A stretch of DNA of 64,000 nucleotides from an uncultured bacterium (lineage in GTDB: Bacteria > Omnitrophota > Omnitrophia > Omnitrophales > Aquincolibacteriaceae). The stretch covers positions 45,943 to 109,942 of the forward strand of contig CAZSFZ010000006.1 of assembly GCA_964606385.1 (NCBI GenBank), in the 5' to 3' direction. The translations under genes and the position numbers were made by a program. How positions within the stretch are numbered: position 1 is the stretch's first letter; each line of letters starts with the position of its first letter. Positions 1,312 through 61,192 of the stretch are shown here, piece after piece. The notes beneath the pieces are model-generated. The model worked only from the letters and a program-made list of their open reading frames with translations. It was not told the origin of the DNA and made no database searches.

Positions 1312-1365
1312 CGGGCCGCCATCTGACGTTCAAACGTCAGGTTGCGGCCTTTTTGTTTTCAGGGC
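1312..1365 (+). terminator. Rho-independent terminator after the gspA/B-like pair
   Basis: GGGCCGCC..CTGACGTTCAAACGTCAG..GCGGCC nested stem followed by TTTTTGTTTT. Confidence 0.5.
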
Positions 1366-4652: not shown

Positions 4653-4661
4653 GGCGGAAGA

Positions 4662-5465
4662 ATGCGCGCGTTAACGGAAAAAATCATTTCCCGGATCGCC
4701 GCGGTGCCCGCGCTGTTTCTCTTTCTGGATTATGACGGCACCCTGACGCCCATCGCGTCCGGTCCCAGCAAGGCTCGGTTAAGTTCCCGGGTACGGCGGA
4801 TCCTGAAGAAAATCGGATCCTTGAAAGATCTCCGGCTTGCGATCGTCAGCGGCAGGTCGCTGGCGAATTTGAAGCAATATGTCCGGATCCCGGGCCTGAT
4901 CTACGCGGGGAATCACGGTTTTGAGGCCGCGGGGCCGGGGCTGGCGTACGTGCATCCCGCGGCGGCGGCTTTGGAGCCTGTTTTCCGGAAATGCACACGT
5001 CGGCTTCGGAAGATCATGGCTCCGTTCCCGGGGATCCTGATCGAACACAAGCGGTTCAGCGTCAGCGTTCATTACCGTCAGGTCCGTTCGCCCGGGAGGG
5101 TCCGGGAGGCACGACGGCTTTTGATCAAGGAACTTCGGTCGCTCCGGCACACGCCGGTCGTGCTCGCGGCGGGCAAGAAAGTGTGGGAGATCCGCCCCAC
5201 GCGGGAGTGGCACAAAGGGGAGACGGTCGCCTGGCTTTTGCGGCGCGCCGGAAACTCCGGGCGGAAAAAGTTTTTCCCCGTTTATGTCGGGGATGACACA
5301 ACGGACGAAGATGCCTTTCGCGCCATACGCAAGGTCGGGATTGGTATCAAGGTCCATTCAGGCGGGGGCCGCCGTTCTTCGGCACGCTATTTTGTCCGGT
5401 CCACGGGAGATGCGGTGCGTTTTCTGGAAAAGATCATCCGTTTAAGAATAACAAAAGGGTGCTAA
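4662..5465 (+). CDS. otsB: trehalose-6-phosphate phosphatase (HAD)
   Basis: HAD motifs LFLDYDGTL, VSGRS, GNHGFE and VGDDTTDE. Confidence 0.85.
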   Translation: MRALTEKIISRIAAVPALFLFLDYDGTLTPIASGPSKARLSSRVRRILKKIGSLKDLRLAIVSGRSLANLKQYVRIPGLIYAGNHGFEAAGPGLAYVHPAAAALEPVFRKCTRRLRKIMAPFPGILIEHKRFSVSVHYRQVRSPGRVREARRLLIKELRSLRHTPVVLAAGKKVWEIRPTREWHKGETVAWLLRRAGNSGRKKFFPVYVGDDTTDEDAFRAIRKVGIGIKVHSGGGRRSSARYFVRSTGDAVRFLEKIIRLRITKGC

Positions 5466-7097
5466 ATGCCGGGCGATCCGCTTTGGTATAAAGACGCGAT
5501 CATTTACCAGCTGCACGTCAAATCGTTCTTTGACAGCAATGAGAACGGTTTTGGTGATTTTCCCGGCCTGACCCAAAAACTGGGCTACCTTCAGGACCTC
5601 GGGATCAACTGCATCTGGCTCATGCCGTTCTACCGCTCGCCGATGAAAGATGACGGCTACGATATCGCCCACTACGAAGAAGTGGCCCCCGAATACGGGA
5701 CCATGAAAGATTTCCAGGCCTTCGTGAAGGAGGCGCACAAGCTCGGGATCAAGGTGCTGATCGAGCTTGTGATGAATCATACCTCCGACCTGCATCCGTG
5801 GTTTGCCGAGGCCCGTCCTTCCCAAAGTTCGCCGAAACGGGATTTCTACGTCTGGAGCGATGATCCGGAGAAATACAAAGATGCCCGGATCATTTTCACC
5901 GATTCCGAAAAATCCAACTGGACCCATGATCCGGTGTCGGGCCAGTATTACTGGCACCGTTTTTTCAGCCACCAGCCGGATCTGAATTACGATAACCCTC
6001 AGGTCCAAAAGGCCATGCACGATGTGCTTTTTTTCTGGCTCAAAATGGGGGTCGACGGTTTCCGTCTGGACGCGGTCCCGTATCTTTTTGAACGTGACGG
6101 CACGAATTGCGAAAATCTTCCGGAGACGCACGCTTACCTCAAGGGGCTGCGGGCCCAGCTGGATAAGGCTTTTAAGGACAAGGTGCTTTTGGCCGAAGCG
6201 AATCAGTGGCCGGCCGACGTGCGGCCCTATTTCGGGCAGGGGGATGAATGTCATATGGCATTCCATTTCCCCTTGATGCCGCGGATCTTCATGGCGATCC
6301 GGAAAGAAGATAACGCGCCGATCCTTGAGATCATGAAGCAAACGCCTTCGATCCCGGAAAATTGCCAATGGGCCCTTTTCCTCCGCAATCACGATGAGCT
6401 GACGCTTGAGATGGTGACCCAGGAGGAACGCGATTACATGTACCGGGAGTACGCGGCGGACCCCAAAGCCCGCTTGAACCTGGGGATCCGGAGGCGGTTG
6501 GCGCCTCTCATGAATAACGGGCGGAGGCAGATGGAGCTTTTGAACAGCCTTCTTTTCAGTCTTCCGGGGACGCCCATCATCTATTACGGCGATGAGATCG
6601 GGATGGGGGACAACATCCACCTGGGGGACCGGAACGGCGTCAGGACCCCGATGCAATGGAACGGGAACAAAAATGCGGGTTTTTCGACCGTGGACCCCGA
6701 TAAACTTTACGCGCCTCTCATTATCGATCCTGTTTACGGCTACCAGGCGATCAACGTGGAAGCCCAAGGCATGACCCAATCCTCTTTTCTGAATTGGACG
6801 AAACGGATGATCCGGGTGCGCAAGAGCCTGAAAGCCTTTGGTCGCGGGACGATCGAGTTCCTTCATCATAAAAATCCGAAGATCCTGGCTTATATACGCG
6901 CCTATGGGGATGAAACGCTTTTGATCGTCAACAATCTATCCCGCTATGTTCAGCCGGTGGAACTCGATCTGAAAAACTATGACGGCTGGGAACCTTTGGA
7001 GCTTTGGGGGAACGTGAAGTTCCCAAAGATCGGGGAGCTTCCTTATTTCCTGACCCTCGGGCCGCACGGGTTCTATTGGTTCCGTCTTAACAAGTGA
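5466..7097 (+). CDS. treS: trehalose synthase / maltose alpha-D-glucosyltransferase (GH13)
   Basis: LWYKDAIIYQLHVKSFFDSNENGFGDF, VMNHTSD, GFRLDAV and YYGDEIGMGDN, all typical of TreS. Starts immediately after the otsB stop. Confidence 0.85.
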   Translation: MPGDPLWYKDAIIYQLHVKSFFDSNENGFGDFPGLTQKLGYLQDLGINCIWLMPFYRSPMKDDGYDIAHYEEVAPEYGTMKDFQAFVKEAHKLGIKVLIELVMNHTSDLHPWFAEARPSQSSPKRDFYVWSDDPEKYKDARIIFTDSEKSNWTHDPVSGQYYWHRFFSHQPDLNYDNPQVQKAMHDVLFFWLKMGVDGFRLDAVPYLFERDGTNCENLPETHAYLKGLRAQLDKAFKDKVLLAEANQWPADVRPYFGQGDECHMAFHFPLMPRIFMAIRKEDNAPILEIMKQTPSIPENCQWALFLRNHDELTLEMVTQEERDYMYREYAADPKARLNLGIRRRLAPLMNNGRRQMELLNSLLFSLPGTPIIYYGDEIGMGDNIHLGDRNGVRTPMQWNGNKNAGFSTVDPDKLYAPLIIDPVYGYQAINVEAQGMTQSSFLNWTKRMIRVRKSLKAFGRGTIEFLHHKNPKILAYIRAYGDETLLIVNNLSRYVQPVELDLKNYDGWEPLELWGNVKFPKIGELPYFLTLGPHGFYWFRLNK

Positions 7098-46299: not shown

Positions 46300-46425
46300 T
46301 CATTGAAAATATAGAGTGACAGGTGCTGGGAAGAGAGATCTGAGAGAATGCTCTCAGGGACTCCACGGTGCCGCCGCTGTCGGTAAGGACGAAAGCGAAT
46401 CAGCCACTGCTTCGATGTAAGAGGC
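46300..46425 (+). ncRNA. cobalamin (AdoCbl) riboswitch aptamer
   Basis: GGTGCTGGGAAG...GGTGCCGCCGCTGTCGGTAAGG...AATCAGCCACTGC contains the GGGAA, GCGGTAAGG-like and GCCACTG B12-box elements. Located upstream of a TonB-dependent receptor/btu operon. Confidence 0.6.
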
Positions 46426-46565
46426 GGGAAGGCTCGCGAGTAGGCTTGCCCCGTTGAATACGGGGTAAACACTTACCTAGTCAGAATATCAGCCTGTCGC
46501 TTTTGAAATTTGAGATCGTTCGTTTGAGATCTCGTAACGCCTCCGAGCAGAGGTCAAGACAGGTC

Positions 46566-46603
46566 ACCCTTTCTTGCCCCATCGAGGCAGAAAGGGTTTT
46601 TTT
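46566..46603 (+). promoter_or_regulatory. riboswitch expression platform: hairpin sequestering the RBS of the receptor gene
   Basis: CCCTTTCTTGCC-CCATCGA-GGCAGAAAGGG. The 3' arm contains the GAAAGGG Shine-Dalgarno, followed by T7 and a GTG start at 46604. Confidence 0.5.
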
Positions 46604-48901
46604 GTGTCTAAAGTCAAAAAGATTCGGAGCGCGCATCTCCGGATGATCAGTGCGTTGTTCCTTGTTTTTTGTTTTTTGAACATCGGTTGGAGTTTTCCAT
46701 TCTTCAAAAAGAAGGAAAATAAAACGCCGGCCAATGCCGCCCAAACGGTCCAGGAATCCAAGCCGGATTCTCAGCAAACCCAGCCTCAAGTGGATGTTGC
46801 CGATCAGGGTTCCGACCAAGTAAAAAAAGCGGATACCCTTTCCGTCAACGTTATTGCTTCCAGGCTTCCTTCAACGACACAAAATATTAATGATATGCCC
46901 TCCAACGTTACCTTTAAGAGCGCCGAGGAACTCGGGTATACCAAGCCCATGACCTTTCAGGACGCAGTCCGCGACACGGAAGGCGCTATTTTCTACGATG
47001 AGGTAGGGAACGGTGTGGACTCCACTTTTTCTTTGCGCGGTTTTACGAGCTCAAGCGCGGTCGTGTTCCTTGTGGACGGCGTGCGGGTGAATGAAGTTGA
47101 CAGTAACGCGGTGAACTTTCCGCTGATCCCGATGCGGGATGTCCAGTCTATCCAGATCGAGCGTGGTTCTTCCTCCGCCGTTTACGGGAGCAATGCCTTT
47201 GCTGGGGTGGTGAATATCACGACGGGACAGCCGAGCTCGAAACCAGTCCATCTTTTTGGGGGACTCGAATGGACCAGTTTTCACGGTCTCCGTTTCAATC
47301 AAGGCGTGAGCGGCACGATCCAGGACAAGATCACGCCGCTGGGAGGTAAATTCACTTATTATTTCAACGGGGAGCGCGATGATACCCAGGGTTACCGGAA
47401 CCACTCAGAATTCCGTCTGACTTCTTTTGATATCAAGACCGCTTATGAGCTTCCGGAGGAGCAGGGCCGCTTCTTTGTGAACGTGAAGCATATGGTGGAT
47501 GGAGACCATACGCCCGGGGAGATCACCCTGCAGCAATATACGGCGGGGAACCTGCGCGCCAGCAACAAGCCCTACGATGGCCGTAAATTCTTCAACACGA
47601 TCGTTTCGCTGGGCGGGGACAAGAAATTCTGGGATGACCGGATCTTGGCGTCGATCATGTATAGTGACCGCGAGAATCGAAGGAATATTTACACTACTTA
47701 TGGGACTTTCACGGATTTGACTTACGGGTTCGATCCGTATACGGCATTTATTAACATGAAAAGCCGGGACCGCGATCTGACATGGCAGCTGAAATACGAC
47801 GATCAATGGAAATGGCTTGGGAATGAGACGCTTTTAGGGATGGAGGTCCGAAATAGCCGGCAGACTTCGGCCGAGCGGTATGCCTATCTGGGGAATATCC
47901 AGGAATCCTTGCCTCCCACGACCGATCACAGCGCGGACTATCGCAATGTCGCGATCTTTTGGCGGGAGACCTTGAAAATCTTCGACCGCATCATCCCTTA
48001 TTTCGGGATGCGGCATGATTTCAATTGGCTGAACACCCAGGACGCCATCACCCCGACGAATAATGTCAGCCAGCGGTATGACAAGTCCACGCTTTCCACG
48101 GGTGTTACCGTGAAGCCTTTCAAATGGATGGATCTTTTCGGGAATTATTCGCAAGGATTCCGTGTTCCCACCATGGATGAACTGGTCCCATGGGCGGGCG
48201 CCAATCAGGTGAACATCAACCCTGAAAAATCCAATAGCTATGAAGCGGGGACCCGGTTACGGTATAAAGACACCGTCGCCTACAAGCTCAGCTATTTTCT
48301 GATCGATGTGGAAAATGAGATCCAGTGGGATAATGTGCTGAGCCAATATTACAACATCGCTGAAACGCGCCGTTACGGGATCGAGCAGCGCGTGGATATC
48401 ACTCCCGTTCAGGAAGTGAAATTATACGGAAGTTATACCTGGATGACGGCGTTCGTCCACAGCAACGGCGGTACCAGCAGTCTTGTCCAGGGACGCTCCC
48501 TGGGGCAGGTTCCGGCGAACCGGTTCACACTCGGGGGCATCGCGACGCCTTTAAAGCGGCTGGGAACCCCGTTTGACGGTTTAAAATTGGGCTTGAACGG
48601 AGAGTTTACCGGGAAACAGCACCCGTCCAGTTATGAATCTTCGAGTCAAGCGACCCTGGACGCGACGGGAGGAGCGGGGCATTGGATCAAGGCGTATTCC
48701 GTTTGGAATTTCATCACATCTTTTGAGTGGAAAAAGAAAGAGATATATCTGAAGATCAATAACATCTTTAATGAGCGGTATTATTCCCGCGCCTATGCCG
48801 GATCCTCGTGGGGGAGTTCTCTATACCCTTTTGGGGACTATGTGTGGGTTAATCCGGGAGCCCGCCGTGAATTTGTGCTCGGAACCAAGTGGGAGTTTTA
48901 G
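46604..48901 (+). CDS. btuB: TonB-dependent outer membrane receptor (BtuB-like)
   Basis: Signal peptide, TonB-box/plug region (DTLSVNVIASR), long beta-barrel and a C-terminal aromatic residue (..KWEF). Confidence 0.85.
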   Translation: MSKVKKIRSAHLRMISALFLVFCFLNIGWSFPFFKKKENKTPANAAQTVQESKPDSQQTQPQVDVADQGSDQVKKADTLSVNVIASRLPSTTQNINDMPSNVTFKSAEELGYTKPMTFQDAVRDTEGAIFYDEVGNGVDSTFSLRGFTSSSAVVFLVDGVRVNEVDSNAVNFPLIPMRDVQSIQIERGSSSAVYGSNAFAGVVNITTGQPSSKPVHLFGGLEWTSFHGLRFNQGVSGTIQDKITPLGGKFTYYFNGERDDTQGYRNHSEFRLTSFDIKTAYELPEEQGRFFVNVKHMVDGDHTPGEITLQQYTAGNLRASNKPYDGRKFFNTIVSLGGDKKFWDDRILASIMYSDRENRRNIYTTYGTFTDLTYGFDPYTAFINMKSRDRDLTWQLKYDDQWKWLGNETLLGMEVRNSRQTSAERYAYLGNIQESLPPTTDHSADYRNVAIFWRETLKIFDRIIPYFGMRHDFNWLNTQDAITPTNNVSQRYDKSTLSTGVTVKPFKWMDLFGNYSQGFRVPTMDELVPWAGANQVNINPEKSNSYEAGTRLRYKDTVAYKLSYFLIDVENEIQWDNVLSQYYNIAETRRYGIEQRVDITPVQEVKLYGSYTWMTAFVHSNGGTSSLVQGRSLGQVPANRFTLGGIATPLKRLGTPFDGLKLGLNGEFTGKQHPSSYESSSQATLDATGGAGHWIKAYSVWNFITSFEWKKKEIYLKINNIFNERYYSRAYAGSSWGSSLYPFGDYVWVNPGARREFVLGTKWEF

Positions 48902-48912
48902 GAGCTGCTTCT

Positions 48913-49389
48913 ATGAAAAAAACAATGACCGTGTTGGGGCTGCTGTTGTTACTGATGCCGGCCCTGACCGGCGCGGAAAATGTTTCACTGCAGCCTTCCT
49001 CCGGCGAGACGGGGCAGAAAGATCCGCTCAAGATGTCTTTTCGGCCCGCCATGGAATTCATGCCCCGGCCTTCGACGGTTTTTCCGGAAAAAGAGGGGGC
49101 GGACATGGGAACCGCCATGCCTTATCTGATCGAAATGTCCAAGCCGATCACTTATCCAGGCTGGGCCCGACGGAAGGGTTTGGAAGGCCTGCTTGTGGCT
49201 GCGCTTGAGGTCCTCGAGGACGGGAGCGTGGGCAGGTGGCAGATCGTGCGGTCGACGGGAGACGAATCCCTGGACAAGGCGGCCGTAAAGAATTTCCGTA
49301 CCTGGAAGTTCCAGCCCGCTATGAAAAACGGCAAACCTGTCACGACCTGCATCCAGGTTCCTATCAACTTCGAACTGACAAAAGAATGA
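48913..49389 (+). CDS. TonB C-terminal-domain periplasmic protein
   Basis: Signal peptide MKKTMTVLGLLLLLMPALTG and a TonB_C-like domain (PITYPGWARRKGLEGLLVAALEVLEDGSV...VPINFEL). Confidence 0.6.
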   Translation: MKKTMTVLGLLLLLMPALTGAENVSLQPSSGETGQKDPLKMSFRPAMEFMPRPSTVFPEKEGADMGTAMPYLIEMSKPITYPGWARRKGLEGLLVAALEVLEDGSVGRWQIVRSTGDESLDKAAVKNFRTWKFQPAMKNGKPVTTCIQVPINFELTKE

Positions 49390-50231
49390 AATTACAAGCC
49401 TGGACGTTAGCGGGACTTCTTTTTTTTATTTCTCTGCCAGACGTTCACGCTGTGGATCCCGAAGCAAAGGCCGGCGTTCCCCAGAAGATCGTCTCCATCA
49501 ATCTTTGTTCCGACGAGCTTCTTCTTCAGCTGGTGGCGCCGGAGCGAGTGGCGGCCCTGACGAAATTCAGCGCGGATCCGGAGTTCTCGACGATCGCGGG
49601 CAAGGCGCGGGACATTAAAAAGATCCAGGGTGGGATCGAGGACGTTCAGGCTTGCGGTCCGGACCTTCTTTTGGGCGGACGGTTCAGCCATAAAGAAACG
49701 ATGCGGTTTTTCAAGAATGCCGGGATCCCGGTCCTGACCTTCGGTATTCCAAAGAATTTTGAGGATATCTATGCGGATATCCTGAGGCTTGCGGCCGCGG
49801 TAGGGGAAGCCGCGTTGGGGGATCAGATCGTGATGAGCATGAAAGAAGAACTCGTGTCGCTGCGTCCGAAGACGCCCTCGAAGCAAAAAGCTGTTTTTTT
49901 ACAAAGCGGCGGCCTGGTGCCGGGTTCGGGGACGTTCGAGAACGCCATCATGGAAGCCGCGGGCCTTGAAAATCTTGCGGCGGCTTCCGGCATCAAAGAT
50001 TACGGGAATCTTTCGCTGGAGCAATTGATCCGGATGAAGCCGGATATGCTGATCTTCGCGAGTGACCAGAAAAAACGCCCGACGGTGCGCGGTGAGGTGC
50101 TGGACCATCCCGCGATCAAGAAGGCGCTGCCTCGTGTGAAAAGCGTGACGATCCCTTCGGCGATCCTGAACTGCGGATCCCCGGCATCGGTCGAGGCGGT
50201 GAGGATCCTTGTGAAGGAAACGGTAAAATAA
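49386..50231 (+). CDS. btuF: ABC transporter periplasmic substrate-binding protein, BtuF/FhuD family (Peripla_BP_2)
   Basis: Signal peptide, then KIVSINLCSDELLLQL...PDLLLG. ATGA overlap with the upstream gene. Confidence 0.75.
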   Translation: MKLQAWTLAGLLFFISLPDVHAVDPEAKAGVPQKIVSINLCSDELLLQLVAPERVAALTKFSADPEFSTIAGKARDIKKIQGGIEDVQACGPDLLLGGRFSHKETMRFFKNAGIPVLTFGIPKNFEDIYADILRLAAAVGEAALGDQIVMSMKEELVSLRPKTPSKQKAVFLQSGGLVPGSGTFENAIMEAAGLENLAAASGIKDYGNLSLEQLIRMKPDMLIFASDQKKRPTVRGEVLDHPAIKKALPRVKSVTIPSAILNCGSPASVEAVRILVKETVK

Positions 50232-50234
50232 ATT

Positions 50235-50367
50235 CGAAATGCGAATGCCGAAGCACGAAACAAATCTAAAATCCGAATGTTCAAAAGCACAAGGCCTCTT
50301 GTTTTTCGGTTCTGATTTTGAAAATTTGAATTTGTTTCGGATTTCGTGCTTAGGATTTCGGATTTGA
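50235..50367. repeat. AT-rich imperfect palindrome inside the btu operon
   Basis: AAGCACGAAACAAA (50251-50264) is mirrored by TTTGTTTCGGATTTCGTGCTT (50331-50351). Repeated AATCCGAA/TTCGGATT words. The region is far AT-richer than the surrounding operon. Confidence 0.35.
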
Positions 50368-50380
50368 AGACAAGGCGATT

Positions 50381-51394
50381 ATGAAAAGACATCAACAGAC
50401 AAATATTTTGAAGGAAACGTCCTCATGGCTGCTTTATGGCCTGCTCGGGATCGCCTTGGCGGTCTCCTTCTTTTGGTCCTTGAGCGTTGGAGCCACGAAG
50501 ATCTCGATCTGGAACGCTGTCTTTCAGCCGTTTTCCGACGGAGCTTTCATTCTTTGGGATATCCGGTTGCCGCGGGCGGTCCTTGGCCTTCTCGTGGGCG
50601 CAACGCTCGGGCTTGCGGGCGCGGCCATGCAGGGTTTTCTCCGCAATCCGTTGGCGGAGCCCGGAGTGCTTGGCGTGACGGGGGGCGCGGCATTCGGCGC
50701 CGTGCTCGTTTTCTACACGGGGCTCTCCACTGCTTTTTCGTTGGCGCTTCCCCTGGGCGGCATTCTGGGGGCGTTTTTTTCCGTGTTCCTACTCTATCTT
50801 TTTGCCGGACGTCTCGCGAACGTTCAAACCCTGATCCTCGCGGGCGTGGCGATCAATGTCATGGCATTCTCGGGAACTTCGCTCGCGCTCAATCTCACCA
50901 AAGATCCGTACGCGGTGCTGGACATTGTTTTTTGGCAGATGGGTTCTCTCGCGGATCGGAGCTTCACGCATGTCTTTCTTATTCTGTCTTTTGTCCTGAT
51001 CGGTTGGGGATGGCTTCTGTGGGACCGTCGGGCGCTCGATGCCCTGAGCCTCGGTGAAGAAACGGCCGCGAGCTTGGGGGTGAACCTTAAAACGCTTCGC
51101 TTGAGGATGATCTTGGGAACAGCCCTTTGTGTGGGGGCGGCGGTATCAGTCTGCGGAAGTATCGGCTTTGTGGGGCTCGTGGTCCCGCATTTGCTGCGTC
51201 CTTTCGTGGGACATGAACCCGGAAAACTTCTCGGGGTTAGCGCCCTTGGTGGAGCCATCCTTCTTCTTCTCTCGGATATCGCGGTGAGGCTCGTGCCTTC
51301 GATCGTGGAGCTCAAACTCGGGGTTGTGACCTCGCTCATCGGCGCGCCGTTCTTTATCGTGTTGATCTTTAAAATGAGGCGGAAACTTTTATGA
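50381..51394 (+). CDS. btuC: FecCD-family ABC permease (BtuC-like)
   Basis: ~9-10 TM helices with FecCD conserved segments. Confidence 0.85.
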   Translation: MKRHQQTNILKETSSWLLYGLLGIALAVSFFWSLSVGATKISIWNAVFQPFSDGAFILWDIRLPRAVLGLLVGATLGLAGAAMQGFLRNPLAEPGVLGVTGGAAFGAVLVFYTGLSTAFSLALPLGGILGAFFSVFLLYLFAGRLANVQTLILAGVAINVMAFSGTSLALNLTKDPYAVLDIVFWQMGSLADRSFTHVFLILSFVLIGWGWLLWDRRALDALSLGEETAASLGVNLKTLRLRMILGTALCVGAAVSVCGSIGFVGLVVPHLLRPFVGHEPGKLLGVSALGGAILLLLSDIAVRLVPSIVELKLGVVTSLIGAPFFIVLIFKMRRKLL

Positions 51395-52161
51395 CCCTGA
51401 TCGAGGCGCGCAAGGTTTGTGTCCGGTTTGATGACGTGCCGATCCTTCAGGATGTGGACCTTGAACTCAAAAAAGGAGAGATCCTGGGACTGATCGGTCC
51501 GAACGGGGCCGGCAAATCCACCTTGTTGAAAATACTGATCGGGGAGATCGGATCTCAGTCTGGAAGTGTCAGGGTCCTGGATGGGAAGAAAGAACGCCTG
51601 GCTCAAAAGATCTCTTATCTCCCGCAAGGACAAGTCATCCATTGGCCCCTGAGCGTCCAACGGCTTGTTTCCCTCGGGCGTATCCCGCACCTGATGCCGT
51701 GGGAGCAACTGGGGCCGGAAGATGAAAGAGCGATCGCGCAGGCCATGGAGGATACGGACATCGCTCATTTGAAAGACCGTTATGTGGATCATCTGGCGGG
51801 CGGGGAGCGTAACCTCGTCCTTTTGGCCCGGGCGCTCGCGACCCAGCCTTCCGTGCTTTTGGCGGATGAGCCCGTCCAGGGGCTGGATCCCGCGCATGGT
51901 CTACAGGTGATGGAGCTTTTGTCGCGTTTCGCCGTCGCGGAGCGCGGGGTCGTCGTGGTGCTTCATGACCTGACGCTTGCCGCGCGTTTCTGTCACCGGC
52001 TTGTTTTGATCCATCAGGGTAAAGTGCTCGCGTCGGGAAAACCCGAGGAAGTTCTTTCCCCGGAGAATCTAAAGAAGAGTTATCATATCGAAGTGAAATA
52101 CGGTTCCGGCGGAGATTTCTACATTGTTCCGTGGAAAACCCTTCAAGGGAACGGGAGTTAG
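51391..52161 (+). CDS. btuD: ABC ATP-binding protein (BtuD/FecE-like)
   Basis: Walker [25 protein letters not shown] and Walker B LLADEP. ATGA overlap with btuC. Confidence 0.85.
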
Positions 52162-52167
52162 AGGACT

Positions 52168-52677
52168 ATGAAAAAAAGAAATAAAGGACTCACCCTGGTG
52201 TTTACGGGGAACGGGAAAGGGAAGACGACCGCGGCGGTAGGTTGCGCCGTGCGCATGATCAAGCACGGAAAACGCGTCGGCATGGTCCAGTTCTTCAAGC
52301 TCCCGAGCAAGCACATCCTGCCGCATTCAAAATTCAGGGTCTGGAGCTTCGGCGGGGGATTCACCTGGGCCACGGCCCATACCGAGAACGCCCAGGCCGT
52401 CCAAAAGGCGTGGGCGAAGTGCCTTGAGCTTCTCCGCAATCCGAAATATGACATGGTCATTTTTGATGAGATCAATATCGCTTTTCATTACAAATTCCTC
52501 AAAATACCTGACGCGATCCAGGCGCTCAGAGGCCGTCGTTCCTCCCAGCATGTGGTTCTGACCGGCCGGAGCGCCCCTCGGGCCATCCAGCGTTTTGCCG
52601 ATCTCGTCACCGAAATGAAGTGCGTCAAACACCCCTACGATCGCGGTATTCCCGCCCAACAAGGGATTGAATTCTAA
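52168..52677 (+). CDS. btuR: cob(I)yrinic acid a,c-diamide / cob(I)alamin adenosyltransferase (CobO/BtuR)
   Basis: GLTLVFTGNGKGKTTAAVGCAVR P-loop typical of CobA/CobO. Confidence 0.85.
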   Translation: MKKRNKGLTLVFTGNGKGKTTAAVGCAVRMIKHGKRVGMVQFFKLPSKHILPHSKFRVWSFGGGFTWATAHTENAQAVQKAWAKCLELLRNPKYDMVIFDEINIAFHYKFLKIPDAIQALRGRRSSQHVVLTGRSAPRAIQRFADLVTEMKCVKHPYDRGIPAQQGIEF

Positions 52678-54890: not shown

Positions 54891-55682
54891 ATGAAACACA
54901 CACCGCAGACCATCTATTCTAAAAAGCAGGCGGGGCAGAAGATCGTTTCGCTCAGTCTTTATGATTATCCCAGCGCCAAGATCGCGGACGGGGCCGGTGT
55001 CGACGTGATCATGGTGGGGGATTCGGTCGGCATGGTGCTTCTCGGCCACGAGAATACGCTGGGCATGACCATGGAACACATGATCTATCACACCCAGGCT
55101 GTTTCGAAAGCCGTGAAACGCGCGCTTGTGGTCGCGGATATGCCGGTCCACTCCTACCACGATCCCGAAACGGCGCTTGCCAACGCGAAGCGTTTCTTGC
55201 ATGACGCCGGCGCCGATGCCGTGAAGCTCGAAGGCGGTGCCAAGGTCCAGCCTCAGATCGAAAAACTTATGACCCAGGGGATCTCCGTGATGGGACACCT
55301 GGGCATGCTTCCTCAAGGTGTCGGGGATGGGAAATACCGCGTGTTCGGCAAAGATCCGGAGGAGGCCGAGGCGATCCTGAAGGACGCGCAGCTGCTTGAC
55401 CGGCTGGGGGTCTTCTCGATCGTATTGGAGTGTGTTCCCGTGAAGCTGGCCGCGGAAATTACCCGAAGCGTCAAATGTCCCACGATCGGGATCGGCGCGG
55501 GGCCTTCGACCGACGGTCAGGTGCTGGTTTTTCACGATCTTCTTGGGATACGTTCCGGCGTGAGCCCCCGTTTTGTGAGGCGTTACGCGAACCTTGAGGC
55601 GGTCATGAAAAAAGCGGCCGCTGATTATTACAGTGACGTTCAGCACAAAAGATTCCCGTCCCAGAAGGAGAGCTTTTCGTGA
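54891..55682 (+). CDS. panB: 3-methyl-2-oxobutanoate hydroxymethyltransferase (ketopantoate hydroxymethyltransferase)
   Basis: LSLYDYPSAKIADGAGVDVIMVGDSVGMVLLGHENTL is canonical PanB. Confidence 0.9.
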   Translation: MKHTPQTIYSKKQAGQKIVSLSLYDYPSAKIADGAGVDVIMVGDSVGMVLLGHENTLGMTMEHMIYHTQAVSKAVKRALVVADMPVHSYHDPETALANAKRFLHDAGADAVKLEGGAKVQPQIEKLMTQGISVMGHLGMLPQGVGDGKYRVFGKDPEEAEAILKDAQLLDRLGVFSIVLECVPVKLAAEITRSVKCPTIGIGAGPSTDGQVLVFHDLLGIRSGVSPRFVRRYANLEAVMKKAAADYYSDVQHKRFPSQKESFS

Positions 55683-55722
55683 TGGAGGCGCAATCCTTGG
55701 TTACTTCACGAGGAAATTTATC

Positions 55723-57186
55723 ATGACCAAGGGAAAACGGATCCTGGTAGTCGAAAAAGACGACGCGACCCGGGAGCTCGTCCTGATGCGGCTCCATTCC
55801 CGCCACCACAAGGTTTTTGAAGCTTCCAAAAGTACTCAAGCCCTGAGGTTCCTTGACCGCGAGGTGCTGGACCTGATCCTTCTTTCAAGCGACATGGAGC
55901 CTGTGGGCGGCAAGATGCTGATCCAGGTCATCCGGTCCCGGTCCCATCTGATGTCAGTCCCGGTCGTCATGATCACGGATGAGTTCCAATTGACCGAACT
56001 GATGCTCGGCCATGAAAAAGGTTTTGACGATTTTCTGGTGAGGCCGTTCAGCCCGCTTGTGTTGCAATTACGCGTCAACCTGAACATCGCGAAGACGATG
56101 GAGCGGGTCGAAGCGAACGCACTCACGCACCTTCCCGGGAACCACGCGATCGAGAAGATCGTCCAGAAGAAGATCCAGGCGGGGGAGAAATTCTCGGTCC
56201 TTTATATCGACATCAATAATTTTAAGGCGTTCAACGATCATTACAGTTTCCAGAAGGGGGATGAGGCGATCCTTCAGACCGCCCGCCTTCTCGTGTCGAC
56301 CAGCCACGCCGTGGCGCGGGACGGGGAATGCTTCATCGGGCATATCGGGGGGGATGATTTTATCGTGGTGCTTCCGCCCGAACTCGAAGAGGTCTATGCG
56401 CGTCAATTCATCGACGATTTTGACCGGATCATCCCGACCTACTACAATAAAAAAGACCGGGATGCCGGCTTCATTCGCGTGGAGAACCGGCGCGGCAAAA
56501 TGGAAAATTTTCCTCTCATGTCCTGTTCGGTGGCCGGCTGCACCAACACGTACCGGAATTATGTGAACCTTCGTGAGATCGCGCAGGACGCGGCGGAGGT
56601 CAAAACGTTCCTGAAGAGCCAGCCGGGGAGCCATTACCTTCAGGATCGCCGTTCGGCCCCGATCAAAAAACTGGATGAAGCGGTCCATATCCTGGAACCG
56701 GAGATCAAGCCGCCCAAATCCAAAAAGCGCGTGGACCCGCTGGGCCAGGTCCTGGTGAGCTCCGGTTTGATCACTGAGGAGCAGCTTGACCAGGCCCTCA
56801 AACAGCACCTCCAAACGGGCCATCGTCTCGGCCAGACCCTGATCGACATGAACCTCATCTCGAGCCAGGATGTGGGGCGGATGTTGGAAAAGAAACTTAA
56901 AGTGCCTTATTTCAGTCTGAAGGGATGGACGCCGGACCCGGCCGTTTTTCATCTCTTTAACGCGGAGTTCGTGCTTCATCACCGCGCGGTCCCGATCGGT
57001 GTTTCCGAGGGTTCGGTGCGGGTCGCCATGTGCGATCCCTTCGATCTCAGGACGCTCGACGCGATCGAACGGATCACGGGCCTCAAACCCGTGCCGTACC
57101 TCGCGCTGGAAGACGAATTCGAGCGCCTCCTCGAAACCCTGGCCCCGGATACGGGCCGGGGAGCCGAACCCGTCCCGTCCATCTAG
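55723..57186 (+). CDS. response-regulator receiver + GGDEF-type (GGDDF variant) domain + C-terminal MshEN (GspE-N-like) c-di-GMP-binding domain
   Basis: REC domain (ILVVEKDD...LILLSSDM...VPVVMITD). GGDEF fold with LYIDINNFKAFND and IGGDDF in place of GG(D/E)EF. Two tandem MshEN motifs, PLGQVLVSSGLITEEQLDQALKQ and HRLGQTLIDMNLISSQDVGRMLEK, then a GspE_N-like alpha/beta subdomain. Confidence 0.8.
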   Translation: MTKGKRILVVEKDDATRELVLMRLHSRHHKVFEASKSTQALRFLDREVLDLILLSSDMEPVGGKMLIQVIRSRSHLMSVPVVMITDEFQLTELMLGHEKGFDDFLVRPFSPLVLQLRVNLNIAKTMERVEANALTHLPGNHAIEKIVQKKIQAGEKFSVLYIDINNFKAFNDHYSFQKGDEAILQTARLLVSTSHAVARDGECFIGHIGGDDFIVVLPPELEEVYARQFIDDFDRIIPTYYNKKDRDAGFIRVENRRGKMENFPLMSCSVAGCTNTYRNYVNLREIAQDAAEVKTFLKSQPGSHYLQDRRSAPIKKLDEAVHILEPEIKPPKSKKRVDPLGQVLVSSGLITEEQLDQALKQHLQTGHRLGQTLIDMNLISSQDVGRMLEKKLKVPYFSLKGWTPDPAVFHLFNAEFVLHHRAVPIGVSEGSVRVAMCDPFDLRTLDAIERITGLKPVPYLALEDEFERLLETLAPDTGRGAEPVPSI

Positions 57187-57274: not shown

Positions 57275-57610
57275 ATGGGGATAGAATCTTTTCCTGAGAT
57301 CGAGAATTTTCAGAAATTACCGCGCGAAGTCATCATCAAGGGCGCCAGCACCCACTTCCACGAGGCGGAAGGGGCGTCCCTTCAAGGGATCGTCATCAAT
57401 AACATCGGTCATCCGATCAAGAATATCCGCGCCCAGCTGGTCATTTTTGATAAAAATCAGGTTCCGCTCATGGGGACCAGCGTGCCTACCGAACCGGACC
57501 ATCTTCCCCAGGGAGGGATCGCGAACTTCCATTTCCGGCTGAAAGAGCATAAGTCAGAGATTAAAAAGTACTTCCTGTACGCTAATTGGGGCTTTGACGA
57601 AACGGCATAG
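57275..57610 (+). CDS. hypothetical protein (111 aa)
   Basis: ORF only. No recognisable motif. Coding-like codon usage. Confidence 0.35.
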   Translation: MGIESFPEIENFQKLPREVIIKGASTHFHEAEGASLQGIVINNIGHPIKNIRAQLVIFDKNQVPLMGTSVPTEPDHLPQGGIANFHFRLKEHKSEIKKYFLYANWGFDETA

Positions 57611-58751: not shown

Positions 58752-59780
58752 ATGAAACAAAACCCGCGGGTTTTAGTTCTTCCGGTTTTTTTTGTTTTTT
58801 CCATCCTATGCCTGGGTTTCGGTCCTCTGGCTCACGCGGAGGAATTTTCGGAAACGGAGGATCCCACCGCGGAGGACCTGCAGCCTGAGCCGGAAAGTGC
58901 TCCTCCCCAGGACCCTCTACTGAAGATCGAAGCGTCGCTTGACCAGAATTCCGTCAAAAGCGGGATGATGTTCCTCGCCCATGTGCAGGCCGAGAACACA
59001 AGCGGGGACACCTCGGTCGATTTCTGGTGCAATTCCTGCTCTTATGAAAAGCACTGGGTGACGGACAACGCCGGTGTTTTCATCCAATCCTGGACCTGTA
59101 ATGAAAACACCTTTGAAGAGGTCACGCTGGATCCCGGTGAATCTTACTCGAAGAACATCATTCTCTATATCCCCAAAAAGGATGGCAGTGCCCCCGTGAC
59201 GTTCCGGTTAGGATTCAAGCGCATGAGCGAGAACGGCGATGTGGCCGAACCGATCTGGAGCGATCCTGTCACGATGAACGTGCTGGTCCCCGATGAGATG
59301 AAAGAGATCACGACTCCCGCGCCCGTCCAAAATCCTGAGCGGATCGCGGATCCGGTTCTCGCGGCAGCGACGCCTCCGGCCGAAGTGCCTACGGCACCGG
59401 CTGCGTCAACGGAACCATCCGCCGTATCGGCGCCTGGAACAGCGGAAGTGCCGGGAAATCGACCCCTTGTTTTCGAGGATCCTGGTGTCCCGATCCGCAT
59501 TCCGCCGGGGCAGGAATTCCTGATCGTTTTGGCCAGTAATCCTTCCACGGGATTCCGCTGGGAAATGACACTCCCTGAGGGCCAAAAGATCATCGAGTTT
59601 CTCAGCTCTGAGCATATCGTCTCCCAGGAAGTGATGCCGGGAGTTCCCGGCGAAGAGGTCTACAAGTTCAAGGCGGCCACCTTGGGAGAAACAAAAGCCG
59701 AGTTTGTCTATGAGCGGCCCTGGGAGCCCAAAACGGCGCCGACCCGCAAGATCTTCACGATCCTTGTTCAAGAAAATTAG
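58752..59780 (+). CDS. secreted protein with C-terminal chagasin-family (I42) peptidase-inhibitor domain
   Basis: Signal peptide, a Pro/Ala-rich linker and a C-terminal beta-sandwich with the NPSTGFRW motif (chagasin NPTTGY[RS]W). Confidence 0.55.
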   Translation: MKQNPRVLVLPVFFVFSILCLGFGPLAHAEEFSETEDPTAEDLQPEPESAPPQDPLLKIEASLDQNSVKSGMMFLAHVQAENTSGDTSVDFWCNSCSYEKHWVTDNAGVFIQSWTCNENTFEEVTLDPGESYSKNIILYIPKKDGSAPVTFRLGFKRMSENGDVAEPIWSDPVTMNVLVPDEMKEITTPAPVQNPERIADPVLAAATPPAEVPTAPAASTEPSAVSAPGTAEVPGNRPLVFEDPGVPIRIPPGQEFLIVLASNPSTGFRWEMTLPEGQKIIEFLSSEHIVSQEVMPGVPGEEVYKFKAATLGETKAEFVYERPWEPKTAPTRKIFTILVQEN

Positions 59781-59806: not shown

Positions 59807-61192
59807 ATGCATAGCCCCCGTGTCGTCATCGTTGGCGGCGGCATTTCAGGCCTCAGCACCGCTTTTTTTCTTATGAGAGAGGTTTCTCAAAAAGGTCTCT
59901 CTCCGAGGATCACGGTCCTGGAAGGCTCCGAGCGTTTCGGCGGTGTTCTGAAAACTATCCGGCACGGGAACGTCCGGATGGAGGCGGGAGCGGACGCGTT
60001 TTACGGGGCCCGGAAAGATACCTTGGACCTTTGCGGTCTGCTGGGCCTTCAGGATGAGGTGATCCAGGCGGCTCCGTGCTTCCGGAATTTTTATTGTTTT
60101 ATTCATAAAAAGCTCATGCCGGTTCCAAATTTCCCGGATTCATTCCAAGCCGCAATCCGTTTTCTGAACGATCCCCGTCTGACTTTTTCCGCCAAAGGCA
60201 GGATGCTGCTGGAGCCCTTTGTTCCCGCAAGAAAAGAAGTCGCGGACGAAAGCCTCGCGAGTTTTATCCGCCGCCGTTTAGGCCAGGGATTCTACGAAGG
60301 GGTTGTAAGGCCATGGGTGCGAAGTGTTTATATGGCGGACCCGGAACGGCTGAGTCTGGAAGCGGTATTCCCGAAGCTCCGGCGGGCGGAGAGGGAATGC
60401 GGAAGTATTTCGGGATTATTCTTTCACGGGGATCCGGTCTCTCGAGGGGAATCATCGGGATTTTTCACGCTCAAACAGGGTCTTGAAAGTCTTGTCCGAG
60501 CGCTTGTGGAGAATCTGAAGGGGCTTGAACTGCGCCTGTCCACTCCCGTACGGCAATGTGTTCGCCGGGATGGTTGGGAGGTCTTTCTTGAGGATGGTTC
60601 CGTGGTGAAGGCCGATATCCTTTGTCTTGCCATGAACACTTGTGAAGCTTCAAGATTGCTCTCCGCGGAAGCCGCGGGGCTTGCGGAGGCGTTATTAACC
60701 ATCCCTTACGATTCGATCGCTTCCGTGAACCTTGCTTTCAAAGTCTCGGATGCGCGGTTTCTCCCGATGAACCCCGGATTTCTCATTAGCGACGCTGATA
60801 ACTCTCCTTTCTCAAGTCTCAAATATCTGGGGCACGATGCGGACGGGCAATGCGCGGTTTTCCGGGTCTTTTTGTCCGAGAGGATGACGCCAGGCCTTTT
60901 CCATGAAAGCGATGATTCGATCATTCAAAAAATCGTAGCCTTTGTGGCCGATCGTTTGGATATGAACGCGGAATTACTTTACCGCGGGGTGGAGCGGTAT
61001 CCCCAGGCGTTCCCTCAATATGAGGTGGGACATCCGGATCTGGTGTCGAAAATTGAAAAGATGTGTGCGTCACACCCCGGTCTTTTTCTGGCAGGGAACG
61101 GATTCCGCGGATTCGGGATCACCGATTGCGTTCGTCAGGCCAGAAGTATGGCTTCCGGTATCGTTGCCCGCATGTTGAGAAACCAATCCTAG
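59807..61192 (+). CDS. hemY: protoporphyrinogen/coproporphyrinogen oxidase-like FAD amine oxidase (HemY/CgoX family)
   Basis: VVIVGGGISGLSTAF...LEGSERFGGVLKTI...EAGADAF N-terminus and a GFGITDCV-like C-terminal motif. Family-level call. Confidence 0.55.
   Translation: MHSPRVVIVGGGISGLSTAFFLMREVSQKGLSPRITVLEGSERFGGVLKTIRHGNVRMEAGADAFYGARKDTLDLCGLLGLQDEVIQAAPCFRNFYCFIHKKLMPVPNFPDSFQAAIRFLNDPRLTFSAKGRMLLEPFVPARKEVADESLASFIRRRLGQGFYEGVVRPWVRSVYMADPERLSLEAVFPKLRRAERECGSISGLFFHGDPVSRGESSGFFTLKQGLESLVRALVENLKGLELRLSTPVRQCVRRDGWEVFLEDGSVVKADILCLAMNTCEASRLLSAEAAGLAEALLTIPYDSIASVNLAFKVSDARFLPMNPGFLISDADNSPFSSLKYLGHDADGQCAVFRVFLSERMTPGLFHESDDSIIQKIVAFVADRLDMNAELLYRGVERYPQAFPQYEVGHPDLVSKIEKMCASHPGLFLAGNGFRGFGITDCVRQARSMASGIVARMLRNQS

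What the first reader, a model, noticed from the sequence alone, without database searches (positions are those of the whole stretch)
55723..57186. Receiver-GGDEF(GGDDF)-MshEN protein: a phosphorylation-controlled c-di-GMP cyclase-like domain fused to a c-di-GMP receptor domain
MshEN/GspE_N domains normally sit on T2SS/T4P ATPases, where the tandem RLGxxLLxxGLITxxQLxxALxxQ motifs bind c-di-GMP. Here two near-consensus motifs (PLGQVLVSSGLITEEQLDQALKQ; HRLGQTLIDMNLISSQDVGRMLEK) form the C-terminus of a REC-GGDEF protein. Its signature is GGDDF, so the fourth-position Glu is replaced and it is possibly non-catalytic. This is either a degenerate cyclase turned into a dual-input (phosphoryl + c-di-GMP) effector, or a cyclase with built-in product sensing. 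The ExeA/GspB-like pair at the window start hints at a pilus/secretion context.
Basis: partly seen in the sequence, partly recalled or inferred. Interest (0 to 1): 0.65.

Follow-up and report, generated by a model that had tools for sequence, protein, structure and literature searches.

The report
Pseudo-receiver, GGDDF cyclase, MshEN fusion protein
This is a real signalling gene conserved in Candidatus Omnitrophota that joins a probable c-di-GMP-making domain to a probable c-di-GMP-sensing domain in one protein, but its "receiver" domain has lost the phosphorylation site, so it is an interesting uncharacterised variant of known parts rather than a new kind of system.

Summary
Window 55723-57186 (+) encodes a 487-aa protein with a receiver fold (7-118), a complete GGDEF-fold domain carrying GGDDF (129-311) and a full MshEN domain (339-476).

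Three parts of the interpretation need correcting.
- The receiver cannot be phosphorylated at the canonical site. The acceptor position is Ser55 (Ser/Ala in 115/115 close relatives) and the second acidic-pocket residue is Lys12.
- GGDDF is neither an error nor a private degeneration. It is invariant in the family and marks a distinct H(I/V)GGDDF clade. That clade keeps the metal-binding and guanine-binding residues and lacks an RxxD I-site. Published in-vivo data show GGDDF enzymes can be active.
- The MshEN motifs keep 8 of 12 ligand-contact positions, but both phosphate-binding glutamines are replaced (His362, Lys391). PilF GSPII-A, a non-binder, has a similar pair. Binding of c-di-GMP is therefore plausible, not established.

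The gene sits directly after folD-panB in four related loci (panB alone in a fifth). It is not in a pilus or secretion context.

Most likely it is a phosphorylation-independent cyclase with a built-in product sensor that stands in for the missing I-site. No paper found describes this architecture.

The parts
55723..57186 (+). Complete coding sequence, 487 aa: pseudo-receiver, GGDDF domain, MshEN domain
   Evidence: ORF list; Shine-Dalgarno GAGGA at 55710-55714; domain models; 100% identical protein P0001 in public data
55741..56076 (+). Receiver-fold domain (residues 7-118) that lacks the canonical phosphoacceptor
   Evidence: Pfam Response_reg 46.5 bits; alignment to PleD and PhoB receivers; predicted beta-alpha receiver fold
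55885..55887 (+). Codon of Ser55, at the position of the phosphoacceptor Asp
   Evidence: DLILLSSDMEP aligns with PleD DIILLDVMMPG; Ser 102 / Ala 13 of 115 relatives; end of strand beta3 (residues 51-55) in the model
56107..56655 (+). GGDEF-fold domain of the H(I/V)GGDDF clade (residues 129-311)
   Evidence: Pfam GGDEF covers only the first half; the whole domain matches more than 100 cluster representatives at 40-46% identity; Foldseek aligns about 185 columns to solved GGDEF domains, TM 0.7-0.78 relative to the target
56347..56361 (+). GGDDF signature (residues 209-213), preceded by invariant Gly206-His207
   Evidence: Direct reading; invariant in 115/115 relatives and in 125 of 149 clade representatives
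56656..56736 (+). Poorly conserved, largely disordered linker (residues 312-338)
   Evidence: pLDDT below 50 for residues 328-336; mean column conservation 0.53, the lowest region
56737..56895 (+). MshEN_N four-helix bundle: motif I (339-362), 5-residue spacer (363-367), motif II (368-391)
   Evidence: NF053729 63.5-65.9 bits; residue-by-residue alignment to V. cholerae MshE 5htl; contact positions 96% conserved against 72% for other motif positions, permutation p = 0.00045
56896..57150 (+). MshEN_C (T2SSE_N1-like) subdomain (residues 392-476), including Asp438-Pro-Phe-Asp441
   Evidence: Pfam MshEN 78.9 bits; 'AMCDPFD' aligns with MshE 'AMSDPAD', which holds D108 and D111; conserved in the family
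54891..55682 (+). panB immediately upstream; conserved neighbour and probably co-transcribed
   Evidence: Pfam Pantoate_transf; panB lies directly upstream in L001, L003, L010 and L011, with gaps from a 4-nt overlap to about 100 nt

Best explanation
The gene encodes a soluble c-di-GMP signalling protein that is conserved in Candidatus Omnitrophota and is probably co-transcribed with folD-panB.

**N-terminal domain.** It has a receiver fold but has lost the phosphoacceptor Asp and one Mg-binding Asp. It most likely serves as a phosphorylation-independent dimerisation or regulatory scaffold.

**Central domain.** It is a complete GGDEF fold of a separate H(I/V)GGDDF clade. It keeps the metal-binding Asp163, the guanine-reading Asn171 and Asp180, and the acidic pair of the signature. 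It probably binds GTP and makes c-di-GMP as a dimer. It has no RxxD inhibitory site.

**C-terminal domain.** It is tethered by a flexible linker and is a full MshEN domain with a strongly conserved ligand pocket. I infer that this domain binds the enzyme's own product, or ambient c-di-GMP, and feeds back on the cyclase in place of the missing I-site.

**Shown:** the domain identities, the loss of the phosphoacceptor, the conservation pattern, the clade membership and the synteny.
**Inferred:** catalysis, c-di-GMP binding, and the existence and direction of the feedback.
For: - **Domains and fold:**
- **Pseudo-receiver:** Ser55/Ala at the acceptor position in 115/115 relatives and Lys12 in 99/115. 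More distant members of the same architecture still carry DD...D...K (P0124, P0129, P0131). The loss is therefore derived and then maintained.
- **Cyclase competence:**
  - Asp163, Lys168, Asn171, Asp172, Gly179, Asp180, Gly206, His207 and GGDDF are invariant.
  - Almost all of these (Asp180 in 41 of 44), plus Arg256, Lys298 and Arg310, stay invariant in REC-GGDDF relatives of about 40% identity; Lys294 and Ser303 are kept in 43 of 44.
  - In those relatives this domain is the only output domain.
  - A GGDDF domain (GSU1937) made cGAMP and c-di-GMP in vivo, and its GADDF mutant was inactive (PMC8835794).
  - EAL-CBS-GGDDF PA3258 showed apparent cyclase activity once its phosphodiesterase was disabled (PMC12900916).
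- **No I-site:** positions 199-203 are variable.
- **MshEN pocket:**
  - The register against MshE 5htl was verified.
  - Leu340, Gly341, Leu355, Leu359, Arg368, Leu369, Gly370, Leu388 and Asp438 are kept.
  - Contact positions are 96% conserved against 72% for the other motif positions (p = 0.00045).
  - MshEN_N is the most conserved part of the protein.
  - Helix alpha1 starts at Pro339 after a disordered linker, so the extended N-cap helix that blocks PilF GSPII-A is absent (PMC12002112).
- **Other support:** a locus holding an ortholog also encodes a canonical REC-GGEEF-HD-GYP protein, so c-di-GMP turnover exists in these organisms. NfrB and DgcJ in E. coli show that a cyclase physically coupled to an MshEN receptor is a working design (PMC8669469).
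Against: - No biochemical test exists for any member of this family.
- Both MshEN glutamines that hydrogen-bond the phosphates and 2'-OH groups are replaced (His362, Lys/Arg391). [quoted passage not shown]
- Q-to-E changes at these positions in GSPII-B cost 77- to 158-fold in affinity singly and abolish binding together (PMC11731258).
- The NCBIfam motif model also scores the non-binder above its cut-off (50.0 bits), so a model hit does not prove binding.
- Arg at motif I position 1 is Pro.
- The fourth-position Glu of GGDEF acts across the dimer. The shorter Asp could impair this (PMC8835794).
- I could not show that GSU1937 or PA3258 belong to the same clade.
- The model gives no confident contact between the domains (pTM 0.44), so the feedback step is pure inference.
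Confidence: 0.4

Rival explanations
1. Non-catalytic effector or adaptor. The GGDDF domain only binds a nucleotide such as GTP, or serves as a protein-interaction surface. The MshEN domain senses c-di-GMP made by other cyclases. The output is a change in partner binding, for example through the T2SSE_N1-like subdomain.
For: GGDDF lies outside the accepted active-site pattern [G/A/S]G[D/E]E[F/Y]. PA3258 gave no phenotype in early screens (both as quoted in PMC8835794). The clade is often fused to EAL and CBS domains (15 and 11 of 66 members), as in GTP-sensing degenerate GGDEF domains. A canonical GGEEF enzyme exists near an ortholog and could supply c-di-GMP. The receiver is also degenerate.
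Against: The metal-binding and base-binding residues and both acidic signature residues are invariant over a clade in which many members (REC-GGDDF, about 310 aa) have no other output domain. Two GGDDF proteins showed cyclase-type activity in vivo (PMC8835794, PMC12900916). No partner gene is conserved next to the gene.
Confidence: 0.3
2. [quoted passage not shown] It acts as a docking or oligomerisation module that positions an otherwise ordinary cyclase, for example at a secretion or pilus platform protein.
For: The best solved match by sequence is the non-binding GSPII-A (E = 1e-18, 33% identity), which has the same His and a basic residue at the two Gln positions (PMC12002112). The N1 subdomain of type II secretion ATPases is a known protein-binding module (established knowledge of EpsE-EpsL).
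Against: Unlike GSPII-A, this family keeps Arg368 and Gly370, which that study found essential for restoring binding. It also lacks the N-terminally extended helix. The ligand-contact positions are the most conserved positions of the motif, which is not expected for a decayed pocket. His and Lys/Arg can still donate hydrogen bonds to phosphate. No pilus or secretion genes were found in the window or in the five related loci, except one weak N_methyl prepilin-like match in L009.
Confidence: 0.2
3. One reading: a response regulator whose cyclase-like domain is switched by phosphorylation of the receiver, giving a dual phosphoryl plus c-di-GMP input.
For: The receiver fold is intact. Thr85 and a basic residue at position 107 are present. 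More distant members of the architecture keep a canonical acceptor Asp. A histidine kinase gene lies three genes downstream in L010.
Against: In this protein and 115/115 close relatives the acceptor position is Ser or Ala, and the Mg-binding position is Lys in 99/115. No histidine kinase domain turned up in the Pfam scans of the window.
Confidence: 0.05

Closest known systems
PleD / WspR / DgcR-type REC-GGDEF diguanylate cyclases
   Same: The N-terminal receiver fold is followed by a helical linker and a GGDEF-fold domain. These are the best structural matches (E about 1e-18). The metal-binding Asp and the guanine-binding Asn and Asp are conserved.
   Different: The receiver has no phosphoacceptor Asp. 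The signature is GGDDF preceded by His instead of Arg. There is no RxxD I-site. The second half of the domain is too divergent for the Pfam model. An extra C-terminal MshEN domain is present.
V. cholerae MshE N-terminal domain (MshEN, PDB 5htl) and T. thermophilus PilF GSPII domains
   Same: Both subdomains are present. There are two 24-residue motifs with a 5-residue spacer in the same register. Eight of 12 contact positions are identical and the DPxD aspartates are kept.
   Different: The domain sits at the C-terminus of a cyclase-like protein, not at the N-terminus of a T2SSE ATPase. Arg9 becomes Pro, Gln32 becomes His and Gln61 becomes Lys. The His/basic pair matches the non-binding GSPII-A rather than the binders GSPII-B and GSPII-C (PMC12002112, PMC11731258).
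E. coli NfrB (GT2-MshEN) with its dedicated cyclase DgcJ
   Same: A cyclase is physically coupled to an MshEN receptor for local c-di-GMP signalling (PMC8669469).
   Different: There the coupling is between two proteins and the MshEN domain activates a glycosyltransferase. Here the two are one polypeptide with no separate output domain.
GGDDF-motif proteins GSU1937 (TM-HAMP-GGDDF, Geobacter) and PA3258/RapA type (EAL-CBS-GGDDF, Pseudomonas)
   Same: They share the variant GGDDF signature. The same partner domains (HAMP, EAL, CBS) and Ser variants at the Asp180 position occur among the nearest clade representatives. Reports of activity in vivo exist (PMC8835794, PMC12900916).
   Different: Clade membership of these two proteins was not verified here, because their sequences could not be fetched. 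Neither carries an MshEN domain or a pseudo-receiver.
Pseudo-receivers, such as the second receiver-like adaptor domain of PleD
   Same: Receiver fold without the phosphoacceptor, used as a structural or dimerisation element (established knowledge; PleD alignment).
   Different: Here it is the only receiver-like domain, so there is no phosphorylatable partner domain in the same protein.

Membership tests
Response regulator receiver (PF00072) | Receiver (beta-alpha)5 fold and profile match | tested here: met
   46.5 bits against a cut-off of 30.2. Predicted strands 6-10, 30-34, 51-55, 81-86 and 103-107 alternate with helices. PhoB receiver TM 0.85.
Response regulator receiver (PF00072) | Phosphoacceptor Asp at the end of beta3 | tested here: not met
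   Ser55; Ser 102 / Ala 13 of 115 relatives.
Response regulator receiver (PF00072) | Acidic pair after beta1 that binds Mg2+ | tested here: not met
   Glu11-Lys12 in place of Asp-Asp; Lys in 99/115 relatives.
Response regulator receiver (PF00072) | Conserved Thr/Ser (beta4) and Lys (beta5) | tested here: inconclusive
   Thr85 is present (Thr in 76/115). Position 107 is Arg here and Lys in 100/115.
GGDEF diguanylate cyclase (PF00990) | GGDEF palm fold and profile match | tested here: met
   49.4 bits against a cut-off of 23.8, but only model positions 5-90 of 161. Foldseek covers whole GGDEF domains, TM 0.7-0.78 relative to the target.
GGDEF diguanylate cyclase (PF00990) | Active-site signature [G/A/S]G[D/E]E[F/Y] | tested here: not met
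   GGDDF, with the fourth-position Glu replaced by Asp; invariant in the family.
GGDEF diguanylate cyclase (PF00990) | Metal-binding Asp (PleD D327) and guanine-binding Asn/Asp (PleD N335, D344) | tested here: met
   Asp163, Asn171 and Asp180 align with these residues and are invariant.
GGDEF diguanylate cyclase (PF00990) | RxxD inhibitory site five residues before the signature (typical but not universal) | tested here: not met
   The required positions read D-G-E-C, and residues 199-202 are variable in the family.
GGDEF diguanylate cyclase (PF00990) | Synthesis of c-di-GMP from GTP | not testable with these tools
   The only support is indirect precedent from other GGDDF proteins (PMC8835794, PMC12900916).
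H(I/V)GGDDF clade of GGDEF-like domains (defined here) | Full-length domain similarity plus the clade's conserved residues (D163, K168, N171, D172, H207, GGDDF, R256, K294, K298, S303, R310) | tested here: met
   More than 100 representatives at 40-46% identity over residues 129-311. 125 of 149 carry GGDDF. Residue conservation shown.
MshEN domain (c-di-GMP receptor) | MshEN_N 53-residue module: two 24-residue motifs plus a 5-residue spacer | tested here: met
   NF053729 63.5-65.9 bits against a cut-off of 38. Ungapped alignment to MshE residues 9-61.
MshEN domain (c-di-GMP receptor) | MshEN_C (T2SSE_N1) subdomain | tested here: met
   PF05157 78.9 bits at residues 393-476. DPxD aligns with MshE D108 and D111.
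MshEN domain (c-di-GMP receptor) | Key residues of the strict motif RLGxxLLxxGLLxxxxLxxxLxxQ in both copies | tested here: not met
   Eight of 12 key positions are identical. Motif I position 1 is Pro, motif I position 24 is His, motif II position 24 is Lys and motif II position 17 is Val. The turn Gly of motif II (position 10) is Asn. Under the relaxed pattern of Wang et al. (PMC5013675), motif I fails at position 24 and motif II fails at position 10.
MshEN domain (c-di-GMP receptor) | Binding of c-di-GMP | not testable with these tools
   The model score does not discriminate: the non-binder PilF GSPII-A scores 50.0 bits, also above the cut-off.
T2SSE / PilB-type secretion ATPase | C-terminal T2SSE ATPase domain (PF00437) | tested here: not met
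   No such match. The protein ends 11 residues after the MshEN domain.

The most novel reading that the evidence does not exclude
The H(I/V)GGDDF domain and the Gln-to-His/Lys MshEN pocket have co-adapted into a self-contained circuit. In it the enzyme's product is sensed by its own receptor domain. That product could be c-di-GMP, or another nucleotide such as cGAMP or a linear intermediate, because Ser variants at the base-reading position occur in the clade. The sensing would set a phosphorylation-independent set-point or bistable switch. Its strict linkage to folD-panB and to haem-synthesis genes in Omnitrophota could tie it to cofactor metabolism rather than to pili or biofilm.
Probability: 0.1. 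Interest if true: 0.7.

Novelty: new variant of a known kind. Interest (0 to 1): 0.45.

Why it matters
Cyclases are usually restrained by an RxxD I-site, and MshEN domains are known as receptors on ATPases and glycosyltransferases. A conserved protein in which an I-site-less cyclase-like domain carries its own MshEN domain would be a natural test case for local, self-sensing c-di-GMP signalling.

It would also give a handle on c-di-GMP biology in the uncultured phylum Omnitrophota.

Separately, the H(I/V)GGDDF clade is about 520 cluster representatives at E below 1e-30. The Pfam GGDEF model covers only half of it, and the papers I found hold only two indirect activity reports for GGDDF proteins, neither placed in this clade here. 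Knowing whether it is active, and what it makes, would correct the common annotation rule that anything other than GG[DE]EF is inactive.

The family also offers a natural experiment on which MshEN residues are truly needed for binding.

Tried and rejected
- **Sequencing error in GGDDF:** rejected. The motif is invariant in 115/115 relatives.
- **Longer GTG start at 55633:** rejected. It overlaps panB, and a Shine-Dalgarno sequence and the homologue lengths support ATG 55723.
- **Pilus or secretion context:** Pfam scans of about 50 window ORFs found none. The five related loci show folD-panB and haem genes instead.
- **Placing GSU1937 in the clade:** I tried to fetch it with the published deletion primers. 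The first pattern gave no match and the second gave only chance matches in unrelated MAGs.
- **Promoter and terminator scan around the gene:** no more hits than shuffled sequence.
- **NCBIfam c-di-GMP motif score as a binding predictor:** rejected. The proven non-binder PilF GSPII-A also passes the cut-off.
- **Cas10-like GGDD polymerase palm:** considered. Only 3 of 66 clade members gave weak Cas10-Cmr2_palm2 hits, and the best structural matches are all diguanylate cyclases.
- **Literature:** searches for a described GGDEF-MshEN fusion, for GGDDF and for Omnitrophota c-di-GMP signalling found no description of this architecture. The 2016 catalogue of MshEN architectures does not list it.
Full report
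**1. What is in the sequence**

Window 55723-57186 (+) is an intact ORF of 487 codons. A GAGGA Shine-Dalgarno sequence lies 8 nt before the ATG, and the panB stop codon lies 40 nt upstream.

Profile searches give three significant, non-overlapping domains.
- Pfam Response_reg at residues 7-118.
- Pfam GGDEF at 133-219, which covers only the first 90 of 161 model positions.
- Pfam MshEN at 393-476, plus the NCBIfam 'c-di-GMP_motif' model at 339-390 (63.5 bits, cut-off 38).

GGDDF is encoded by ggg ggg gat gat ttt at 56347-56361.

An AlphaFold2 model built on 66 homologues has mean pLDDT 83. It shows three well-folded domains and a disordered tether at residues 328-336. Its pTM of 0.44 means the relative domain orientation is not defined.

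Foldseek against the PDB returns REC-GGDEF cyclases first (WspR 3bre, PleD, DgcR; E about 1e-18). Isolated GGDEF domains follow, aligned over about 185 columns with TM 0.7-0.78 relative to the target. PilF GSPII-A, PilF GSPII-B and MshE also match.

**2. It is a conserved family of Candidatus Omnitrophota**

A search of 5.8 billion proteins returned 959 hits. The best 120 are 55-100% identical. Almost all share the three-domain architecture (a few shorter entries lack one domain), and every entry that carries an organism name is called Candidatus Omnitrophota or Omnitrophica.

An exhaustive phmmer search with residues 125-487 against 1.84 billion cluster representatives found 12 full-length representatives (466-494 aa) at 35-66% identity that match over the whole query. 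Ten of them are listed. Shorter, apparently partial entries match in the same way.

Five loci from relatives of 41-70% identity were retrieved.
- In four of them panB lies immediately upstream. The gap ranges from a 4-nt overlap to about 100 nt.
- Three of those four also have FTCD_C and folD before panB, as the window does.
- Haem-synthesis genes (hemA, hemC, hemD, hemB, a hemY-like oxidase, or hemE) follow or flank the gene.

Pfam scans of about 50 ORFs across the window found no pilus, type II secretion, histidine kinase or other c-di-GMP domain. The ExeA-like AAA_22 gene at 15-707 is 55 kb away and is separated from the target by trehalose, efflux, transport and cobalamin-uptake genes. The suggested secretion context is not supported.

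**3. The receiver is a pseudo-receiver**

HMMER alignments to PleD and PhoB place Ser55 opposite the phosphoacceptor Asp (DLILLSSDMEP against DIILLDVMMPG). They place Glu11-Lys12 opposite the Asp-Asp pair.

In the model Ser55 ends strand beta3, which is where the acceptor sits in receivers.

Among 115 full-length relatives the acceptor position is Ser (102) or Ala (13) and never Asp. Position 12 is Lys in 99.

More distant members of the same architecture still have canonical DD...D...K receivers (P0124, P0129, P0131). So do most REC-GGDDF relatives (acceptor Asp in 31 of 44). The loss is therefore derived and has since been maintained. 'Phosphorylation-controlled' does not apply to this protein.

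**4. GGDDF marks a distinct clade, not a private degeneration**

The motif is invariant in the family. So are Asp163, Lys168, Asn171, Asp172, Gly179, Asp180, Gly206 and His207. By the PleD alignment, Asp163 corresponds to the metal ligand D327. Asn171 and Asp180 correspond to the guanine-reading N335 and D344 (PleD numbering from established knowledge). There is no conserved RxxD I-site.

In the exhaustive search, more than 100 representatives match residues 129-311 end to end at 40-46% identity. 523 representatives reach E below 1e-30. Of the 149 newly retrieved representatives among the best 150 listed, 125 carry GGDDF and nearly all have His two residues before it.

Further positions are invariant or nearly so across the REC-GGDDF relatives compared: Arg256, Lys294, Lys298, Ser303 and Arg310.

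Partner domains among 66 sampled members are REC (39), EAL (15), CBS (11) and HAMP (7). About 11 of 140 domains have Ser at the Asp180 position, as in cGAMP-making 'Hypr' GGDEF enzymes.

Two papers bear on activity.
- The TM-HAMP-GGDDF protein GSU1937 of Geobacter contributes to cGAMP synthesis. Its GGDDF domain made cGAMP and c-di-GMP in E. coli, and the GADDF mutant was dead (PMC8835794).
- The EAL-CBS-GGDDF protein PA3258 showed apparent cyclase activity once its phosphodiesterase was disabled (PMC12900916).

That these two proteins belong to the same clade is an inference from motif and architecture. I could not retrieve their sequences. On balance the domain is more likely a working nucleotide cyclase than a dead one, but this is not shown.

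**5. The MshEN domain: real, but ligand binding is uncertain**

The alignment to V. cholerae MshE (5htl) is ungapped over both motifs. It gives the following correspondences (MshE residue, then this protein):

| Status | Correspondences |
|---|---|
| Kept | L10/Leu340, G11/Gly341, L25/Leu355, L29/Leu359, R38/Arg368, L39/Leu369, G40/Gly370, L58/Leu388, D108/Asp438 |
| Conservative change | L54/Val384 |
| Replaced | R9/Pro339, Q32/His362, Q61/Lys391 |

In the family Pro339 is invariant, His362 is present in 114/115, and position 391 is always Lys or Arg.

The twelve ligand-contact positions are 96% conserved against 72% for the other motif positions (permutation p = 0.00045). MshEN_N is the most conserved segment of the protein. 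This pattern argues for a functional pocket.

Against binding:
- The two glutamines make four hydrogen bonds to the ribose-phosphate.
- Q-to-E changes in PilF GSPII-B cost 77- to 158-fold in affinity singly and abolish binding together (PMC11731258).

However, GSPII-A also lacks the Arg and Gly of motif II, and an extended N-capped helix blocks its pocket. The present protein keeps Arg368 and Gly370. Its helix alpha1 starts at Pro339, directly after a disordered linker. Pro at the first position of a motif also occurs in the binder GSPII-C (PMC11731258).

The NCBIfam motif model cannot settle the question. It scores GSPII-A at 50.0 bits, GSPII-B at 60.3, a GSPII-C segment at 59.7 and this domain at 65.9, all above the cut-off of 38.

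I rate c-di-GMP binding at about 0.6.

**6. Mechanism**

The best-supported reading is a phosphorylation-independent, probably dimeric GGDDF-type cyclase. Its tethered MshEN domain senses c-di-GMP and modulates the enzyme, taking over the role of the missing I-site.

A locus holding an ortholog also encodes a canonical REC-GGEEF-HD-GYP protein, so c-di-GMP turnover exists in these organisms. The E. coli DgcJ-NfrB pair shows that a cyclase in physical contact with an MshEN receptor is a functioning arrangement (PMC8669469). Here the two are fused.

The rivals are:
- a non-catalytic c-di-GMP effector or adaptor;
- a cyclase whose MshEN domain is a non-binding docking module;

**7. Novelty**

All three domains are known, and domain shuffling is the rule in c-di-GMP signalling. 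The 2016 catalogue of MshEN architectures lists fusions with REC, HD-GYP, CheA, CheX, adenylate cyclase, kinase and glycosyltransferase domains, but none with GGDEF. My literature searches found no description of this family. Public databases already annotate its members automatically as 'response regulator' or 'diguanylate cyclase'.

I therefore class it as a new variant of a known kind, of moderate interest. Three aspects would repay experiments:
- the cyclase-receptor fusion;
- the little-studied H(I/V)GGDDF clade;
- the natural Gln-to-His/Lys variant of the MshEN pocket.

Noticed in passing
window 46304-46511 (+), with genes 46574-52677: A cobalamin riboswitch (Rfam RF00174, 54.2 bits) precedes a TonB-dependent receptor, a Peripla_BP_2 binding protein, an ABC ATPase and a CobA/CobO/BtuR corrinoid adenosyltransferase. 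Together these look like a B12 uptake and salvage cluster just upstream of the target's neighbourhood.
   Followed up: partly
window 1273-1324 (+), before the gene at 1525-2430: An nhaA-I RNA (Rfam RF03057, 51.9 bits, full length) lies upstream of an MscS-type mechanosensitive channel gene rather than a Na+/H+ antiporter.
   Followed up: no
window 9509-12203 (-): A fused Memo-AMMECR1 protein (529 aa) lies next to a radical SAM protein. This is the three-part 'AmmeMemoRadiSam' arrangement with two parts fused.
   Followed up: no
window 2427-7097 (+): A trehalose cluster. It holds a 741-aa Glyco_transf_20 (OtsA-like) protein with an unassigned N-terminal extension of about 270 aa, a trehalose-phosphatase and an alpha-amylase-family enzyme.
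   Followed up: no
window 57275-57610 (+); L004 9634-9969: A 111-aa ORF with no Pfam match lies directly downstream of the target. It is conserved at 68% identity in the same position in a relative. It is absent from that position in L001 and L011.
   Followed up: partly
L011 14114-15437: A canonical REC-GGEEF-HD-GYP protein is encoded about 6 kb downstream of the ortholog, after a hemA-C-D-B cluster. This shows conventional c-di-GMP turnover enzymes in the phylum.
   Followed up: partly
L001 9494-15619; L011 8438-14018; window 59807-61192; L009 6009-6914: Tetrapyrrole-synthesis genes repeatedly flank the family's gene: hemA, hemC, cobA-hemD and hemB in L001 and L011, a HemY-like amine oxidase in the window, and URO-D (hemE) in L009. 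I cannot tell whether this is functional linkage or conserved gene order.
   Followed up: no
L010 13288-15443 (runs off the locus): A giant gene whose product is 3721 aa, with faint SLT and HATPase_c hits, lies near a distant family member. This fits reports of giant genes in Omnitrophota (bioRxiv 10.1101/2023.11.21.568195 listed).
   Followed up: no
window 58752-59780 (+): A 342-aa protein with a probable signal sequence carries a C-terminal chagasin-type peptidase inhibitor I42 domain.
   Followed up: no
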